In this document: one piece after another, positions 44,058 to 49,038 of the stretch
Position numbering within the stretch: position 1 is the first letter of the stretch
How the letters are laid out: each line of letters starts with the position of its first letter
IMG/VR virus record: IMGVR_UViG_3300035698_035364
Coordinates: 38,985 to 102,984 of that record
From: a virus
Strand: one strand, 5' to 3'
Length of the DNA: 64,000 nucleotides
The notes under the pieces: generated by a model
What the model was told of the DNA's origin: nothing
The model's input: the letters and a program-made list of their open reading frames with translations, nothing else
Databases searched by the model: none
Position numbers and translations under genes: made by a program

Positions 44058-44495
44058 ATGAGTGAAAAGAAAGTTATAAAAAGTTATAGTATATTGCAAA
44101 CTGAGCAGAATAAAAAAGATGGCCCGAAAAGAGGTAAAGCAGATGAGTTGGTGAAAAGAATAGAAGAAGCTATTTGGACCCATATGGGGGAGAATTTGGA
44201 AGATTTGAGAAAATGGGGGAGGTTAGAGTTTGGTGTGGGCTATCTTATATCTTTAAGTGAGGAAGATAAATTAATTTTATCAGAGAGGGGAGATAAAATA
44301 GCAGATGATATTAGGACTGATTTGGAAGAAGAAGGGTGGGTTGTTAATAGTATAGATTGCGGCAATATGGTTCTTTTGCCAGAAGGAAAAAAAGATGTTA
44401 GTTCTTGTTATCTTTCTATTCAAATACCAGGAATAGTTGTTGACGAGGCAGGATTCAAAAAAATGACATTTATAAGATCTACATTAAGAATATAG
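44058..44495 (+). CDS. Hypothetical protein
   Basis: AGGAG RBS, 145 aa. Confidence 0.65.
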   Translation: MSEKKVIKSYSILQTEQNKKDGPKRGKADELVKRIEEAIWTHMGENLEDLRKWGRLEFGVGYLISLSEEDKLILSERGDKIADDIRTDLEEEGWVVNSIDCGNMVLLPEGKKDVSSCYLSIQIPGIVVDEAGFKKMTFIRSTLRI

Positions 44496-44506
44496 TTAAA
44501 GGATTT

Positions 44507-44660
44507 TTGCTCTTTTTATATAATATATAATCATTGAGATACTTGAACACTACATTAAAGTATTTCAATAGAAAAAGTAGATTATATATTAAAGAGTAAT
44601 ATCTTTTCCCTTAGTAGTGTTCGGGGCTAGATGGTTGCTCTTTTTTTATGGAGAGAGCAA
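44507..44660 (+). ncRNA. Putative structured RNA/leader: two hairpins with complementary loops, U-tract and alternative RBS-sequestering hairpin
   Basis: Stems 44521-32/44580-91 and 44533-44/44558-69; stem 44591-610/44623-43; loops GAACACTAC (44545-53) and GTAGTGTTC (44614-22) are exact complements. Confidence 0.55.
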
Positions 44661-45460
44661 TGGCACATGCCCAAAGATTAACATATGAATTTGTAAACAA
44701 CTTTTTCAGAGAAAATGGTTGTGAGATGATAGACACTAATTATAAAAATGCCCGAACTCATATAAATTATGTATGTAGTTGTGGCAACACATCTAAAATT
44801 ATTTTTGATAGTTTTAGGAGAGGGCATAGATGTAAGAAGTGTGCTACTAAAGAGAATACTAAAAAACAAACCTTCTCCTTTGATTATGTATATAATTATT
44901 TTAAGGGGCAAGGTTGTGAGATGATAGATGATAACTACGTCAATGCTCAGACCAAGATAAGATATCGATGTAAATGTGGGAAAGTTGCTCATATTAGTTT
45001 TAATGGCTTTCAGCAGAAAAATAATAAGTGTTGTGCGAAGTGTAGTCTTGAAGGGAGATCCGGAAAAAATCATTATGAGTGGATTTCTGATAGAGAATAT
45101 ATGAAAGAGAAGTTAAAGTTTAAAGATAAGTGCTATAAAATGCTGAGATATACCATTAAACAAACTCGACAGTTTAAAACACATAGAACCCATGAAATGC
45201 TAGGATATACACCGGAAGAATTGAGAGATCACATTTATCAGCATCCTAATTGGAGAAAAATTAAAAATAAGAAATGGCATTTAGATCATATTTTCCCTAT
45301 ACAAGCCTTTGTAGATTATGGTGTTAAAGATTTAAAACTAATTAATGGGCTGGAAAATTTACAGCCTCTTTCTGTATGGGACAATTCAAGTAAAAATGAT
45401 AGTTATGATGAAGAACTTTTTGAAAAATGGTTAAAGGAAAAAGGATATGAAGTGGCGTAA
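44660..45460 (+). CDS. HNH homing endonuclease with two tandem Cys-rich zinc-binding repeats
   Basis: WHLDHIFP...NLQPL..DNSSK; duplicated 'F...GCEMID.NY.NA...Y.C.CG...C.KC'; GGAG RBS suits ATG 44660 (track start 44648); overlaps the dnaE start. Confidence 0.85.
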   Translation: MAHAQRLTYEFVNNFFRENGCEMIDTNYKNARTHINYVCSCGNTSKIIFDSFRRGHRCKKCATKENTKKQTFSFDYVYNYFKGQGCEMIDDNYVNAQTKIRYRCKCGKVAHISFNGFQQKNNKCCAKCSLEGRSGKNHYEWISDREYMKEKLKFKDKCYKMLRYTIKQTRQFKTHRTHEMLGYTPEELRDHIYQHPNWRKIKNKKWHLDHIFPIQAFVDYGVKDLKLINGLENLQPLSVWDNSSKNDSYDEELFEKWLKEKGYEVA

Positions 45461-46802
45461 CGAAGATTTTGTACACTTTCACACACACTCAGAATTCAGC
45501 CAGTTCGATGGCCTTGCCAAAGTAAATGAGTTAGTTTCTCAGGCCAGGAAAATGGGATTTCCTGCTCTGGCACTAACTGATCATGGTAATATTATGGGAT
45601 GGATTGAGTTTTTGCAGGCTTGTCGAGCAACTAAGGATAAAAAGGGTCAGCCACTTCCTTACGCCCCTATAAAACCTATCTTGGGTTGTGAGTTCTATTT
45701 GGCCAGGAAAATGGATGTAGGTCAATATGATGAGAAAAAGAAGAGGGCAGGCAAGCCCAAAGAGGGGCAACCTGATGGCAGGAGGGGGAATAGACATTTG
45801 AACTTATATGCTATGAATTTTGAGGGGTATAAAAATATATGTCGGTTGTCTCAGAAATCATATTTGAATGGGTTCTATTTTGATCCCAGGATCGACGTAG
45901 AAACTTTGGCCCAACATTCTAAGGGGCTGATGGGAGGGTCTGCTTGTTTGTCCAATGTTATTAATGTTAATCTAATGTATGGCAAATACGAAGAGGCAAA
46001 GAAGGCTGCCGGGATGTTAAATGAAATATTAGATGGCAATTTCTTTTTGGAAGTTATGTATCATGGGATCCATGAGGAGAAAGCAATTATACCAGAGATA
46101 TTTAGGCTCTCATCAGAGTTAAATATTCCTGTAGTTGCCACTAACGATAGTCATTATATTTATAGTAATGAGGGTAAATATCAAGAAGTGTTGATGTGCA
46201 TGTCTCAGGCAAGGTGCTTAAAAGATCCGGATAGATTGAAGTTTGGTCATATGGAGTTTTACTTAAAGAGTGCCGAAGATATGGCATCGATGTTTGGAGA
46301 TAGACCTCACTGTTTGCATAATTCTGCTCTTATGGCAGAAAGAATAGATACTGCTGACATAGAAAAGAATCTTTTTGTGGGTATGAGACTGCCTAAGTTT
46401 GATATCCCTGAGAAATATAAAGATTCTTATGAATATCTATGTGTTTTAGCGGTGCAAGGGATGAAGAGGGTAGGATGGGATAAAAGCCCTAAGCATGTAG
46501 AGGCGTTAAAGAAAGAATTATATGATGTTAAAGTGGCTAGAGATAGTAACAACTATGATTTCTCTACTTACTTTTTAATTGTGCGGGATTATATCCAATA
46601 TGCTAGAGATAATGATATAATGGTGGGATGTGGCCGGGGATCTGGCTATGCAAGTGTATTATTGAGATGTTTGGGGATTACGTATGGTATCGATCCTATT
46701 GAATATGGTTTGATATGGGAAAGATTTTTGGGGTTTGATGATTTAAGATTCATTAAGGAATCAGATTTTGGCTTTGCCACCGACCAAGGAGCAAGAGCTT
46801 GA
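45447..46802 (+). CDS. dnaE: DNA polymerase III alpha subunit, N-terminal part (PHP domain to GRGS/ERFL)
   Basis: FVHFHTHSEFS.FDG, ALTDHG, PILGCEFY, VATNDSHY, YFLIV.DYI, GRGS, LGIT..DP, WERFL; ends before PDIDxD. Confidence 0.92.
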   Translation: MKWRNEDFVHFHTHSEFSQFDGLAKVNELVSQARKMGFPALALTDHGNIMGWIEFLQACRATKDKKGQPLPYAPIKPILGCEFYLARKMDVGQYDEKKKRAGKPKEGQPDGRRGNRHLNLYAMNFEGYKNICRLSQKSYLNGFYFDPRIDVETLAQHSKGLMGGSACLSNVINVNLMYGKYEEAKKAAGMLNEILDGNFFLEVMYHGIHEEKAIIPEIFRLSSELNIPVVATNDSHYIYSNEGKYQEVLMCMSQARCLKDPDRLKFGHMEFYLKSAEDMASMFGDRPHCLHNSALMAERIDTADIEKNLFVGMRLPKFDIPEKYKDSYEYLCVLAVQGMKRVGWDKSPKHVEALKKELYDVKVARDSNNYDFSTYFLIVRDYIQYARDNDIMVGCGRGSGYASVLLRCLGITYGIDPIEYGLIWERFLGFDDLRFIKESDFGFATDQGARA

Positions 46803-47013
46803 GCAGTTAATTCGATTATATGAGCTTGGTATTGTAAGCCGTAAGGCAGTTTGTGAAAAATTTGGCATTTCAGACCCGTTTTTGATGCAGGAATTAGCAG
46901 TGCAAGAATTATTGGGACTTCCTCCAGAAAAAGAGGAAGTCTTAGAGGAAGAATCCCCGGACATGGATTGGCCAATCTCTAATTCTTATAAATGGACAAT
47001 TTTAGACATTTAG
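46768..47013 (+). CDS. Small hypothetical protein inserted between the dnaE halves, ending in tag KWTILDI
   Basis: 81-aa ORF with TTG start, AAGGA upstream; fills the gap between the two dnaE parts. Confidence 0.6.
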   Translation: MALPPTKEQELEQLIRLYELGIVSRKAVCEKFGISDPFLMQELAVQELLGLPPEKEEVLEEESPDMDWPISNSYKWTILDI

Positions 47014-47017
47014 CTTA

Positions 47018-47046
47018 TTGAAAAGTGGAAAATATATAATTATAAG
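47018..47046 (+). promoter_or_regulatory. Sigma70-like promoter with conserved AGTGGAAA spacer (copy 3), upstream of the dnaE C-half
   Basis: TTGAAA-N17-TATAAG; 17-mer identical to 29415-29431. Confidence 0.55.
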
Positions 47047-47076
47047 TGATATAGACGATATAAAAGTAGGAAGATT

Positions 47077-49038
47077 ATGGCAGACGCAGCAAAAATAAAA
47101 GAAGAAATAACTAGTATTATTCAAGGCAAATTCTCTGGTCAAAGTGATTTGTCTAAGAGAATGAATATGGTGAAGTATGAGCTTAACACCTTAGATTCCA
47201 CTAATGGCCTGAATGAGAAGAATAATTTAACCACTTTTTACGGGATATGGAAAAGTGGAAAAACAGGAGGGGACAAAAACGATATTAATAGTTGGGTCGC
47301 TTTCTGGCTCAACATGACTTCCAAAAAACCTGATGGTGATTTTTTACCAAAAAGACGTGCTTTTGCTAGAGCAGGTTTCCCTGATATTGACACTGATTTT
47401 GATGATGAAGGCAGGGATCTAGTATATAAGTATATCATAGATAAGTATGGTCGAGAGAATGTGGGGAACATCGGCACTCATGGGATGTTGAAGTTTAAGA
47501 GTTGTGTCACAAGGGTAGTTAAAGCATTGGATGTCGCTGATTCCTTCCATAAGGGGAAAGAAGCCTATATACATGAAAATCAGGAGAAAGTGACTGATAT
47601 ATTGTCTCCTTTTCCTAAAGGTGGAGCTATTAAAATCAGGGATGGGAAGACAACTCATGTAATAGATAATTATCAAGATGCTTATAAACATTCCCCTGAG
47701 TTTCAACATTATATGGATAAGTATCCAGAGGTGGGAGATAACGTAGCAAATATCGAAGGGACTTTTGCTAATTTCGGGTTCCATGCAGCGGGGATTGTTG
47801 TGTCTAATGTTCCTATTGACGAGATCTCTCCTTTAAGAACTGCCAAGGGTGGGGCGTTGGCAACCCAGTTCACTAAAGATAATTTGGAAGATATTGGTCT
47901 TATTAAATTCGATGTGTTGGCCATTACCACTTTATCTGTTATTAAGAGAACGATGGGGATGATTAAGGATTACTATGATATAGATATTGATATAGAGAAT
48001 TTACCTCTTGCTGATGACTCTACTTTTGAGTTGTATAGGAGAGGGAATTTAGGAGGGGTGTTCCAATGTGAGAATTGGGGGATGCAATCCACTATGAAAG
48101 ACATCGAAGTAAGTAGGTTTGAAGATATTATTGTAGGAGTAGCATTATATCGTCCTGGGCCTATGGATAGCATCTCTGAATATTGTGCGAGGAAGAGGGG
48201 GGAGCATAAAATAGATTATTTCCATCCTTCTATTGAACCTCATGTGAAGGAGCATATGCTAAGAACTTTTGCAGTATTATGTTACCAAGAACAGGTCATG
48301 CAAATTTGTAATTCGTTGGCAGGTTTCTCTATCACTGATGGCTATATAATGATCAAAGCCATCGGTAAAAAGAAAGACTATTTATTAAAGAAATTTGAGA
48401 AGCAATTTATTGATGGTTGCACTAAAAATAAGGTTCCTTTAGATGTGGCACAACAATATTGGGAGAAGTTTATTACTCCATTCTCTTCTTACGGGTTTAA
48501 CTTGGCACATGCGGCATGTTATGGATATTTATCATATCAAACAGCCTACCTTAAAGCGAATTATCCTGATGAGTTTATATGCTCTTTATTAGAAATAACT
48601 ACTCACACTTCTAGTGGAGAGAGATATGAGAAGATCGAAGCTTTAGAAAAAGAATTTTCTCGCAAAATGAAAATAAAGTTTCTGCCGCGAGATATTAATA
48701 AATCTAAGCTAATTTATACGATAGAAAGAAAGAAGGACATAAGTAGAGGGATTAAAAAGACGGAGATTAGACCTAGTTTAGTTTGTAAGGGGATGGGGGC
48801 TAATGCTGCTAAACATTTAGAAGAACATCAGCCCTATGATGGGATCAGTGATTTGGTAGATAAAACTGATTCTAGTGTCGTCAATGCCAGAACAGTAGAT
48901 GCTTTGGTTGAGAATGGATACTTGGGGGCCAAGGCACAAAAGAATAAAGAAAAAGTGATGAATGAATTTTTGACTGCTAGAGAAGATGCTAAAAAAGTTA
49001 GTAAAAAAGGTATCGAAGAGCATGACATATTTGCTTAA
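47077..49038 (+). CDS. dnaE: DNA polymerase III alpha subunit, catalytic C-terminal part (palm/thumb/fingers/HhH, no OB fold)
   Basis: PDIDTDFD, HAAGIVV, GLIKFDVL, GVFQ, ALYRPGP, YQEQVM, YGFN.AHA..Y, YLKANYP.EF; ends EHDIFA. Confidence 0.92.
   Translation: MADAAKIKEEITSIIQGKFSGQSDLSKRMNMVKYELNTLDSTNGLNEKNNLTTFYGIWKSGKTGGDKNDINSWVAFWLNMTSKKPDGDFLPKRRAFARAGFPDIDTDFDDEGRDLVYKYIIDKYGRENVGNIGTHGMLKFKSCVTRVVKALDVADSFHKGKEAYIHENQEKVTDILSPFPKGGAIKIRDGKTTHVIDNYQDAYKHSPEFQHYMDKYPEVGDNVANIEGTFANFGFHAAGIVVSNVPIDEISPLRTAKGGALATQFTKDNLEDIGLIKFDVLAITTLSVIKRTMGMIKDYYDIDIDIENLPLADDSTFELYRRGNLGGVFQCENWGMQSTMKDIEVSRFEDIIVGVALYRPGPMDSISEYCARKRGEHKIDYFHPSIEPHVKEHMLRTFAVLCYQEQVMQICNSLAGFSITDGYIMIKAIGKKKDYLLKKFEKQFIDGCTKNKVPLDVAQQYWEKFITPFSSYGFNLAHAACYGYLSYQTAYLKANYPDEFICSLLEITTHTSSGERYEKIEALEKEFSRKMKIKFLPRDINKSKLIYTIERKKDISRGIKKTEIRPSLVCKGMGANAAKHLEEHQPYDGISDLVDKTDSSVVNARTVDALVENGYLGAKAQKNKEKVMNEFLTAREDAKKVSKKGIEEHDIFA

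What the first reader, a model, noticed from the sequence alone, without database searches (positions are those of the whole stretch)
44507..44662. Kissing-loop structured element with mutually exclusive pairings upstream of an HNH endonuclease
Seen: hairpin 1 has a perfect 12-bp outer stem TAATATATAATC/GATTATATATTA (44521-32/44580-91) and a 12-bp inner stem ATTGAGATACTT/AAGTATTTCAAT with one G-U. Hairpin 2 pairs AAAGAGTAAT-ATCT..CCC with GGG..AGAT-GTTGCTCTTT (two G-U) and runs into T7. The two loops carry exact 9-nt complements GAACACTAC/GTAGTGTTC. TTGCTCTTTTT is directly repeated (44507, 44635), so AAAGAGTAA has two possible partners, and the second copy can instead pair with AGAGCAA (44654-60), enclosing the GGAG RBS and touching the ATG. 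Mismatches being G-U argues for RNA-level selection on the plus strand. Known: T4 homing endonucleases (I-TevI, SegB) are repressed by RBS hairpins, and HEARO RNAs accompany HNH ORFs. Inference: an undescribed HNH-associated ncRNA, attenuator switch or mobile-element end.
Basis: partly seen in the sequence, partly recalled or inferred. Interest (0 to 1): 0.8.

Follow-up and report, generated by a model that had tools for sequence, protein, structure and literature searches.

The report
Kissing-loop RNA leader of phage nucleases
A roughly 155-base structured RNA, two hairpins whose loops pair with each other, sits just in front of a selfish DNA-cutting enzyme gene in a huge phage; relatives keep it through many compensating mutations, and it most likely throttles how much of the enzyme is made.

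Summary
The plus strand folds into a three-way junction (-50.4 kcal/mol, z -5.0), and the minus strand folds much more weakly.

I found 18 further instances: 14 full-length and 2 contig-truncated in JGI metagenome contigs, and 2 in a related 350-kb phage. In all 17 full-length copies, counting the window, the two loops keep 8-11 bp of complementarity although the loop sequences differ. Cognate loop duplexes average -12.9 kcal/mol against -3.9 for non-cognate pairs. Seven of the 9 loop-loop pairs and 31 of all 48 pairs show double compensatory changes. G-U wobbles fit only the plus strand, so this is RNA.

No Rfam family matches. The element travels with nuclease genes: a CapR-repeat HNH-superfamily protein, usually wedged in front of phage dnaE; a different classic HNH; and once a TnpB. 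The two closest dnaE relatives lack both the element and the nuclease at that site.

The 3' strand of hairpin 2 plus the U-run is complementary to the Shine-Dalgarno region, so the kissing fold and an SD-masking fold exclude each other. My best reading (about 0.55) is a portable cis-acting leader that limits nuclease expression, in the spirit of the T4 homing-endonuclease hairpins but far more elaborate.

The parts
44499..44504 (+). AAAGGA box at the 5' edge of the element. It is purine-rich and SD-like.
   Evidence: AAAGGA or a one-base variant (AAAGGT, AAGGGA, AGAGGA) occurs in 16 of 17 full-length copies. It is lost only in L172, where the upstream ORF overlaps it. Its role is unknown.
44507..44520 (+). 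Y1, the pyrimidine-rich 5' strand. In the window it forms the closing stem P1 with the SD region (44647-44660).
   Evidence: The minimum-free-energy fold shows the pairing. Cognate Y1/SD-region duplexes are only modestly better than non-cognate ones (-7.1 against -5.7 kcal/mol, permutation p about 0.001). In other members Y1 instead extends hairpin 1 by pairing with AAGAGUAA.
44521..44591 (+). Hairpin 1 (P2). The outer stem is 44521-32 with 44580-91 and the inner stem is 44533-44 with 44558-69. Loop 1 is 44545-57 and an A-rich 10-nt bulge lies at 44570-79.
   Evidence: Nine of the 13 inner-stem pairs and 7 of the 11 outer-stem pairs show changes on both sides across 17 sequences.
44545..44553 (+). 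Kissing sequence of loop 1, GAACACUAC.
   Evidence: It is the exact complement of 44614-22. It covaries in all 17 full-length copies.
44592..44642 (+). Hairpin 2 (P3). The 5' strand AAGAGUAA (R1) pairs with the 3' strand UUGCUCUU (Y2). Loop 2 is 44611-22.
   Evidence: The three helix segments are 98-100% paired, with compensatory changes in 8 of 15 pairs.
44614..44622 (+). Kissing sequence of loop 2, GUAGUGUUC.
44641..44647 (+). U7 tract directly after hairpin 2.
   Evidence: A run of at least 5 U (interrupted once by a C in L121) is kept in all 19 copies. Hairpin 2 plus this tract is the only intergenic hairpin followed by a run of 6 or more T on the plus strand of the 64-kb window.
44650..44662 (+). 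Shine-Dalgarno GGAG (44650-53) and the start codon ATG (44660-62) of the nuclease gene. This region (R2) can pair either with Y1 or with Y2.
44660..45460 (+). Nuclease gene of 266 aa. It has two CapR-like zinc-ribbon repeats and a C-terminal DHIxP...N...N domain of the HNH (beta-beta-alpha-Me) superfamily. Its stop overlaps the dnaE start at 45447.
   Evidence: PHROG 559 and 1035 match. CapR is found in 12 of 30 relatives and GmrSD_C weakly in 4 of 30. There are 116 homologs. AlphaFold gives pLDDT 90.8. Fold matches to CAD (Z 5.0, rmsd 4.1, 114 aligned), PacI, Cas9 HNH and BrxU are weak.

Best explanation
The element is the 5' leader RNA of a portable selfish-nuclease cassette. It holds nuclease expression down through two mutually exclusive folds.

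In fold K, hairpin 1 and hairpin 2 form and are locked together by a 9-11 bp loop-loop (kissing) helix. This ties up the CUCUU-containing 3' strand of hairpin 2 (Y2).

In fold M, the pyrimidine-rich 5' strand (Y1) extends hairpin 1 by pairing with AAGAGUAA, the 5' strand of hairpin 2. The released Y2 plus the U-run then pairs with the Shine-Dalgarno region and masks it. In some members, including the window, Y1 can also pair directly with the SD region and close a three-way junction.

The SD is therefore hidden in most states. It is exposed only when Y1 is unavailable and the kissing fold holds Y2. Y1 could be unavailable because of a ribosome ending the upstream gene, a bound factor, or a transcript that starts downstream of it.

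What is shown: the structure, the pseudoknot, strand specificity, the competing complementarities, and linkage to nuclease genes. What is inferred: that the two folds interconvert, that they control translation (and perhaps read-through at hairpin 2 plus the U-run), and what sets the balance.
For: Structure and strand:
- The plus strand folds at z -5.0, the minus strand at -3.4.
- The covariance model scores 50-165 bits on the plus strand and no more than 31 bits on the minus strand.

Covariation over 17 sequences:
- 93% of cells are paired, against 39-48% when the partners are slid.
- 31 of 48 pairs have double changes, and 0 of 500 shuffles reach the observed values.
- The kissing helix has double changes in 7 of 9 pairs.
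- Every copy has an 8-11 bp loop-loop duplex of -12 to -17.5 kcal/mol, and 7 of them contain G-U pairs.
- Cognate loop pairs average -12.9 kcal/mol against -3.9 for non-cognate pairs, with permutation p below 2e-4.

Competing folds:
- Unconstrained minimum-free-energy folds of relatives alternate between the junction form and the extended-hairpin-plus-SD-hairpin form.
- With hairpin 2 forced, the SD is open in most 5'-truncated RNAs. With Y2 forced to pair downstream, the SD is fully paired in 7 of 11.
- Without the kissing term, fold M is 1-14 kcal/mol more stable in 9 of the 11 copies computed (fold K is ahead in the window's full-length RNA and in L085). The kissing duplex energy is of the same size.
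- The predicted SD is mostly paired in 11 of 16 copies.

Linkage to nucleases:
- The element lies directly upstream of HNH homologs in 16 loci.
- It also lies upstream of a different classic-HNH gene and of a TnpB gene in a related 350-kb phage.
- The two closest dnaE relatives lack both HNH and element in front of dnaE. One of them keeps a 13-codon HNH remnant.

Precedent: SD-sequestering hairpins regulate T4 I-TevI, I-TevII, I-TevIII and segB, and Aeh1 mobE (PMC2988022).
Against: - No expression data exist for this phage, so neither transcription of the element nor any regulation is shown.
- The closing stem P1 is only weakly supported across the family, and the Y2/SD pairing gives p = 0.017 only.
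- SD accessibility predicted without the pseudoknot does not differ consistently between full-length and 5'-truncated RNAs.
- The TnpB copy (L168) has no SD to mask.
- A 9-11 bp kissing helix, an A-rich bulge and an invariant 5' box are more machinery than simple SD masking needs.
- L084 keeps the HNH gene after losing nearly all of the element, so the element is dispensable for keeping the gene.
- Hairpin 2 plus the U-run could be a terminator, which would make this transcriptional control or a separate small RNA.
Confidence: 0.55

Rival explanations
1. The element is a factor-sensing attenuator. The kissing-loop complex is a sensor for a protein (for example the nuclease itself), a metabolite, or the ribosome. 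It decides between termination at hairpin 2 plus the U-run and read-through, as in riboswitch or protein-mediated leaders.
For: Hairpin 2 plus U7 is the only intergenic hairpin with a T-run on the plus strand of the 64-kb window, and the U-run is kept in all copies. Group II copies have TTGAAA-N16-TATAAT about 16 nt upstream of the element, giving a promoter-leader-gene layout. The Y1:R1 pairing has the geometry of an antiterminator. The three-way junction with interacting loops resembles purine-riboswitch architecture (my own knowledge). The structure is more complex than SD masking requires.
Against: No conserved unpaired junction core is evident that would suggest a ligand pocket. The stem next to the U-run is A-U rich and the loop is 12-13 nt, which is atypical for an intrinsic terminator; the consensus scan does not call it. 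An efficient terminator just upstream of the co-directional, overlapping dnaE gene would be costly. No ligand or protein candidate has been tested.
Confidence: 0.2
2. The element is a stand-alone small RNA of about 150-180 nt. It would be transcribed from a promoter just upstream, end at hairpin 2 plus the U-run, and act in trans, for example as an RNA partner or antidote of the nuclease, or by forming multimers through intermolecular loop-loop pairing.
For: Promoter-like sequences lie directly upstream in several copies, and the 3' end looks like a terminator. Covariation cannot distinguish intra- from intermolecular kissing. Phage-associated RNAs that multimerise through kissing loops are known (bioRxiv 10.1101/2024.12.08.627333, seen).
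Against: The element always directly abuts the SD and start codon of the next gene, and its 3' strand is complementary to that SD, which points to cis action. It is single-copy per gene. Two copies in one genome have different loop pairs (L097 and the 350-kb phage), as expected if each pair works within its own molecule.
Confidence: 0.1
3. The element is an RNA processing site. It would be either an RNase III substrate (up to 38 stacked base pairs in the window) or a self-cleaving element that separates the nuclease mRNA from the upstream message and frees or destroys its ribosome-binding site.
For: P1, outer P2 and inner P2 form a long near-continuous helix in the window. T4 segB and segG and Aeh1 mobE transcripts are processed by RNase E (PMC2988022).
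Against: There is no hit to any ribozyme family in Rfam, even at E up to 10. The long coaxial helix is not conserved because P1 varies. Processing would not explain why the loop-loop helix is kept.
Confidence: 0.07
4. The feature acts at the DNA level, as a recombination or homing site, a transposon end, or a protein operator made of inverted repeats.
For: The element marks the 5' boundary of the cassette. TnpB elements are found beside it and inside it. TATAATATATAAT is invariant in group I even where its pairing partner is deleted, as in the second L097 copy.
Against: G-U wobbles in stems and in the kissing helix would be A-C mismatches on the other strand, and fold energies and model scores are strongly strand-asymmetric. 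A protein operator would not be expected to keep two half-sites complementary across at least 14 unrelated loop sequences. TATAATATATAAT is not enriched elsewhere in the window (19 matches against 16 expected).
Confidence: 0.04

Closest known systems
SD-sequestering hairpins of T-even phage homing endonuclease genes (I-TevI, I-TevII, I-TevIII, segB; Aeh1 mobE)
   Same: A stable RNA structure immediately upstream of a phage homing-endonuclease gene can bury its Shine-Dalgarno sequence. The gene sits inside an operon of essential genes. The likely purpose is to keep a selfish nuclease at low or late expression (PMC2988022).
   Different: The T4 cases are single local hairpins with a late promoter inside the 5' arm. 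Here there is no sequence similarity to them. The element is about 155 nt, with two long hairpins, a covarying 9-11 bp kissing helix, an A-rich bulge, a conserved U-run and two alternative partners for the SD. An internal promoter is not shown.
HEARO RNA / IscB omega-RNA
   Same: A structured RNA encoded directly upstream of an ORF that contains an HNH domain on a mobile element.
   Different: The protein here has no RuvC or PLMP domains. It consists of CapR-type zinc ribbons plus a small beta-beta-alpha-Me domain. No Rfam HEARO hit was found. There is no sign of a guide segment. The one TnpB neighbour has the element at its 5' end, whereas TnpB omega-RNAs lie at the 3' end (my own knowledge).
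Left end of IS200 (a terminator hairpin plus an RBS-masking hairpin)
   Same: A mobile element carries, ahead of its gene, one hairpin that can stop incoming transcription and another pairing that hides the ribosome-binding site (my own knowledge).
   Different: The two IS200 hairpins are independent, whereas here they are physically coupled by loop-loop pairing. There is no sequence relation, and this element accompanies nucleases, not a Y1 transposase.
Three-way-junction riboswitch aptamers with L2-L3 loop-loop contacts (purine riboswitch)
   Same: A closing stem with two side-by-side hairpins whose loops pair, followed by an expression platform that overlaps a terminator or SD.
   Different: The helices are two to three times longer and the kissing helix is a full turn instead of a few pairs. 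No conserved junction core is present and there is no Rfam hit. No ligand is known.

Membership tests
T4-type homing-endonuclease SD-masking hairpin | The SD and/or start codon is paired in a stable structure formed with upstream sequence. | tested here: met
   In the window, GGAG is fully paired in the minimum-free-energy fold. Across the family the SD is predicted mostly paired in 11 of 16 copies, and Y2 or Y1 complementarity to the SD region is present in all. These are predictions only.
T4-type homing-endonuclease SD-masking hairpin | A promoter inside the 5' arm, so that some transcripts lack the inhibitory strand. | tested here: inconclusive
   TATAATATATAAT is invariant in group I. However, it has no -35 partner at 16-18 nt, is not enriched in the window and is replaced in group II. 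Promoter-like sites instead lie upstream of the whole element in several copies.
HEARO / IscB omega-RNA | A match to the Rfam HEARO model, and a downstream IscB (RuvC plus bridge helix plus HNH). | tested here: not met
   No Rfam hit at the gathering threshold in the window, nor at E up to 10 in 44400-44760. The protein has no RuvC domain.
Intrinsic (rho-independent) terminator | A G+C-rich stem with a short loop, directly followed by a U-run. | tested here: inconclusive
   A U-run of at least 5 (interrupted once by a C in L121) follows hairpin 2 in all copies. The stem base is A-U rich, the stem is interrupted and the loop is 12-13 nt, and the consensus scan does not report it. Termination has not been tested.
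Any Rfam 15 family | A score at or above the family's gathering threshold. | tested here: not met
   There are 0 hits in the 64-kb window. The best sub-threshold matches have E 1.9-7 and fall far below the gathering scores.
HNH (beta-beta-alpha-Me) nuclease superfamily, for the downstream protein | A beta-beta-alpha-metal fold with a catalytic His and Asn residues. | tested here: inconclusive
   D209, H210, N229, N233 and N242 are invariant in 30 relatives. PHROG 559 'HNH endonuclease' matches at 1e-16 and PHROG 1035 at 3e-8. GmrSD_C matches weakly in 4 of 30. The best fold matches for residues 142-264 are CAD (Z 5.0, rmsd 4.1, 114 aligned), PacI (Z 3.8), Cas9 HNH and BrxU, all below the level that stands out from noise. 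Foldseek gave nothing at E <= 0.001.

The most novel reading that the evidence does not exclude
The kissing-loop element is a new class of portable riboregulator that selfish nucleases of huge phages (HNH enzymes of two kinds, and TnpB) carry with them. It would sense something: the ribosome finishing the upstream gene, the nuclease protein itself, or a small molecule. In response it would switch between a terminator-like kissing fold and an SD-masking fold. Alternatively, it is an RNA partner of the nuclease rather than a mere mRNA leader.
Probability: 0.25. Interest if true: 0.8.

Novelty: new variant of a known kind. Interest (0 to 1): 0.62.

Why it matters
Free-standing homing endonucleases must be expressed enough to spread but not enough to harm the phage or the essential operon they sit in. 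The only well-studied solutions are the simple hairpins of T-even phages.

Here a much more elaborate RNA is conserved across diverged huge phages. Its long loop-loop helix is proven by covariation. It moves with at least three kinds of nuclease gene, including an RNA-guided TnpB.

It offers a compact natural two-state RNA device with an easily reprogrammable 9-bp lock, since at least 14 different loop pairs occur in nature. It is also a clean test bed for how kissing loops bias folding, and a new family for RNA databases. If it turns out to sense a factor, it would be a new regulatory RNA class tied to mobile nucleases.

Tried and rejected
- Similarity searches that found nothing. A blastn 'distant' search of the region against GenBank phages gave no match. 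Single-protein searches of viral contigs with the upstream 145-aa protein and with the HNH protein found no relatives.
- Pattern scans. TAATATATAA...AAGAG...TTTTYC in viral contigs gave 0 hits. AAGAGNNAYTTCTTNTTYCTTTA found only the two copies in the 350-kb phage among viral contigs. In 185,579 prokaryote genomes it gave 58 hits, none of which matched the model.
- Other huge phages. Ten other huge-phage records with HNH homologs contain no element.
- Internal promoter idea. The TATAATATATAAT motif is not enriched in the window.
- 5'-truncation test. Predicted SD accessibility in full-length against 5'-truncated RNA, without the pseudoknot, gave no consistent difference.
- AAAGGA pairing. Pairing of AAAGGA with loop 2 has no support (p 0.95).
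- Protein structure. Foldseek of the whole protein model against the PDB gave no match at E <= 0.001. A PDB sequence-profile search gave only zinc-ribbon noise.
- Literature. Searches found no description of this motif. The supplements of PMC10690425 are not held, so I cannot exclude that one of its roughly 10,000 unnamed candidates overlaps this element.
- Rejected classes. Hammerhead, twister-sister, pistol and hatchet ribozymes and retron msr/msd: no Rfam hit and no conserved core.
Full report
**1. The observation**

As RNA, the plus strand folds into a three-way junction of -50.4 kcal/mol. Dinucleotide shuffles average -30.2 +/- 4.0, which gives z -5.0, and none of 200 shuffles folds as well. 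The parts are:
- a 14-bp closing stem, P1, 44507-20 with 44647-60, which buries GGAG (44650-53) and reaches the ATG at 44660;
- hairpin 1 (P2), with an outer stem 44521-32/44580-91, an inner stem 44533-44/44558-69, a 13-nt loop and a 10-nt A-rich bulge;
- hairpin 2 (P3), 44592-44642, followed by U7.

The reverse complement folds much worse (-32.0 kcal/mol, z -3.4). The two loops carry exact 9-nt complements at 44545-53 and 44614-22. The element is single-copy in the 103-kb virus record that holds the window. That record is about 21% complete by CheckV, so it comes from a huge phage. No Rfam family matches, either at the gathering threshold over the whole window or in a permissive scan of 44400-44760, where the best E values are 1.9-7.

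**2. Surroundings**

All genes in the neighbourhood lie on the plus strand.
- Upstream is a 145-aa ORF (44058-44495) with no family match.
- Downstream is a 266-aa protein (ATG 44660 to 45460). It has two CapR-like zinc-ribbon repeats and a C-terminal DHIxP...N...N domain. PHROGs call it an HNH endonuclease or endonuclease VII. CapR is found in 12 of 30 relatives and GmrSD_C weakly in 4.
- An AlphaFold model (pLDDT 90.8) gives only weak fold matches, but they are to beta-beta-alpha-Me nucleases: CAD at Z 5.0, PacI, Cas9 HNH and BrxU. Foldseek found nothing at E <= 0.001. I treat 'HNH superfamily' as probable, not proven.
- The stop codon of this gene overlaps the start of a phage dnaE gene (PHP domain, 45447-46802). 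That dnaE is itself split from its second half, 47077-49038.

**3. Relatives of the element**

The nuclease has 116 homologs of similar length. Using an alignment of 30 of them (A1), I fetched 80 loci from IMG/VR and 80 from JGI metagenomes.
- BLASTN found homologs of the element directly upstream of the gene.
- A covariance model (R1) found more.
- The loci are L085 (the same as L002), L086, L087 (the same as L088), L091, L092, L097 (two tandem copies, each before an HNH paralog), L098, L100, L101, L102, L110, L115 and L121, plus two copies cut by contig ends (L082, L099).
- Plus-strand model scores are 50-165 bits. Minus-strand scores are 31 bits or less.
- Searching whole records found two more copies in a related 350-kb phage (G001) and none in ten other huge-phage records that carry HNH homologs.
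- Pattern scans of IMG/VR and of 185,579 prokaryote genomes added nothing.

**4. Covariation**

On the model-guided alignment of 17 full-length copies (A5):
- 93% of cells form standard pairs, against 39-48% when the partners are slid by 1-3 columns.
- 31 of 48 pairs have changes on both sides.
- None of 500 column shuffles reaches the observed values.

The loop-loop helix is the most striking part, with 7 of its 9 pairs showing double changes. Taken sequence by sequence, loop 1 and loop 2 read, for example:
- GAACACUAC / GUAGUGUUC (window)
- GAAUGCGAC / GUCGCAUUC
- CAACGCGAA / UUCGCGUUG
- GAACGUGAC / GUCACGUUC
- GGAUUCCAG / CUGGAAUUC
- AAUCCCGGU / ACCGGGAUU

Every copy gives 8-11 bp and -12 to -17.5 kcal/mol, and seven copies include G-U wobbles. 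Cognate loop pairs average -12.9 kcal/mol against -3.9 for non-cognate pairs, with permutation p below 2e-4. The wobbles and the strand asymmetry show that the selected molecule is plus-strand RNA. The alignment was fitted to the model's hairpins, which favours them. The kissing helix was not part of the model, so its signal is independent.

**5. What it travels with**

- In 11 loci the cassette (element plus HNH gene) sits immediately before phage dnaE, with the HNH stop overlapping the dnaE start.
- In L091 the downstream gene is a HEPN/AbiU2-like protein instead, and the first L097 copy lies in yet another context.
- The two closest dnaE relatives (72-73% identity; L162 in G001, and L163) have neither HNH nor element in front of dnaE. 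L162 still carries a 13-codon remnant of the HNH C-terminus (LMKKWLKERGYEI). There, gene and element were removed together.
- Elsewhere in G001 the element precedes a 301-aa protein with three CapR-like repeats and a classic CxxC...HH...N...CxxCH HNH domain, placed after a structural gene. It also lies 12 nt before a TnpB ORF (NF040570, 253 bits; sequence).
- In L093 a TnpB 3' end has replaced the 5' two-thirds of the element.
- On an HNH protein tree, the element-bearing genes fall in two subclades of one well-supported clade. At least four gains or losses are needed. L084 shows a near-complete deletion of the element with the gene kept.

The element is therefore a module of nuclease cassettes, not a dnaE leader, and it can be lost.

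**6. Mechanism**

Four segments matter:
- Y1, the pyrimidine-rich strand after the AAAGGA box;
- R1, AAGAGUAA, the 5' strand of hairpin 2;
- Y2, UUGCUCUU plus the U-run, the 3' strand of hairpin 2;
- R2, the SD region.

R1 resembles R2 and Y1 resembles Y2, so two pairing schemes exist. In the first, Y1:R2 plus R1:Y2 gives the three-way junction with both hairpins and the kissing helix; this is the minimum-free-energy fold in the window and in L085. In the second, Y1:R1 plus Y2:R2 gives one long extended hairpin 1 and a small SD-masking hairpin; this is the minimum-free-energy fold in L086, L087, L091, L092 and L097.

In group II copies the U-run itself pairs with the A-rich stretch before AGGAG (read directly). 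With hairpin 2 forced, the SD is open in most 5'-truncated RNAs. With Y2 forced to pair downstream, the SD is fully paired in 7 of 11 copies. Without a kissing term the masking fold is 1-14 kcal/mol more stable in 9 of those 11 copies, the exceptions being the window's full-length RNA and L085. This margin is about the size of the kissing duplex energy. So the two folds are plausibly balanced, and the kissing helix is what can hold Y2 away from the SD.

Support for P1 across the family is modest (cognate -7.1 against -5.7 kcal/mol, p about 0.001), and it is weaker still for Y2:R2 (p 0.017).

I therefore propose a cis-acting leader that keeps the nuclease's SD hidden in most states. It exposes the SD only when Y1 is unavailable and the kissing fold forms. 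What removes Y1 is unknown. There are three candidates:
- A ribosome terminating the upstream gene. The stop codon lies 0-10 nt before AAAGGA in most group I copies, but 50 nt or more away in group II.
- A bound factor.
- Transcripts that start inside the element.

The T-even homing-endonuclease hairpins are the closest precedent (PMC2988022).

**7. Open points and rivals**

- Hairpin 2 plus U7 is the only intergenic hairpin followed by a run of 6 or more T on the plus strand of the whole window, and the U-run is universal. A terminator or attenuator role, or a separate small RNA, is therefore a real possibility. Near-consensus promoters lie about 16 nt upstream of group II copies (TTGAAA-N16-TATAAT in L102).
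- Against a strong terminator: the stem is A-U rich with a 12-13-nt loop, the consensus scan does not call it, and dnaE lies directly downstream in the same direction.
- TATAATATATAAT is invariant in group I even where its partner strand is deleted (the second L097 copy). This hints at a sequence-specific role, but the motif is not a recurring one in the window.
- The AAAGGA box is kept in 16 of 17 copies and has no supported partner.
- A DNA-level role is unlikely given the wobble pairs and the strand asymmetry.

**8. Novelty**

No Rfam family matches, and I found no paper describing the motif. A large catalogue of unnamed phage RNA candidates (PMC10690425) could not be checked because its supplements are not held.

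In kind, this is a cis-regulatory leader of a homing-endonuclease gene, which is known. In form, it is new: two long hairpins locked by a full-turn kissing helix, dual partners for the SD, and portability among HNH and TnpB genes. I rate it a new variant of a known kind, with an interest score of 0.62.

Noticed in passing
window 45447-49038: The phage dnaE is split. The PHP domain and the first third of the pol3-alpha domain end at 46802. The rest starts in a second ORF at 47077, whose first 95 or so residues match nothing. In relatives L098 and L101 dnaE is in one piece; in L092, L097 and L087 it is split at the same place as here.
   Followed up: partly
L168:1501-2792 (G001:279398-280686): A copy of the element lies 12 nt upstream of a TnpB (IS200/IS605 RNA-guided nuclease) ORF. 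There is no SD in between, and the ORF has an in-frame TAA after about 33 codons. TnpB is single-copy in that 350-kb phage.
   Followed up: partly
L093:1-184: The 3' end of a TnpB gene, plus a hairpin that looks like a right end, replaces the 5' two-thirds of the element. Only GTTCAGGAT...TTTTACTCTTTTTTTT, the SD and the HNH gene remain. This is a second TnpB contact with the element.
   Followed up: no
L162:2970-3012: This 'empty' dnaE upstream site keeps a 13-codon remnant of the HNH C-terminus (LMKKWLKERGYEI) in a frame that is closed upstream. This points to deletion of the cassette rather than a site that was never occupied.
   Followed up: yes
L085:2480-2510 (same sequence as L002): This HNH gene has no ATG after its SD. 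The sequence reads ATG GAG TAA and then ATT CTG GGT AAA AGA. Either it uses a rare start codon (CTG or ATT) or the gene is decaying. Several other copies also carry a 2-3 codon mini-frame (AUG or UUG, GAG, stop) over the SD.
   Followed up: no
L101, L102, L110, L098, L115: 20-70 nt upstream of the element: Group II copies share about 55 nt of extra conserved sequence upstream of the element. It includes GCTCTTTGAAAAC and a sigma-70-like TTGAAA-N16-TATAAT (11 of 12 matches in L102).
   Followed up: partly
L091:3264-4016: In this locus the cassette is followed by a HEPN/AbiU2-like protein (PF18734, 3.9e-09) instead of dnaE.
   Followed up: no
L084, L091, L097 (250-549), L121: gene upstream of the cassette: A small gene ending in ...DGH.ERYD.TKH. 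lies upstream of the cassette in several loci that are not next to dnaE. This suggests a second preferred insertion neighbourhood.
   Followed up: no
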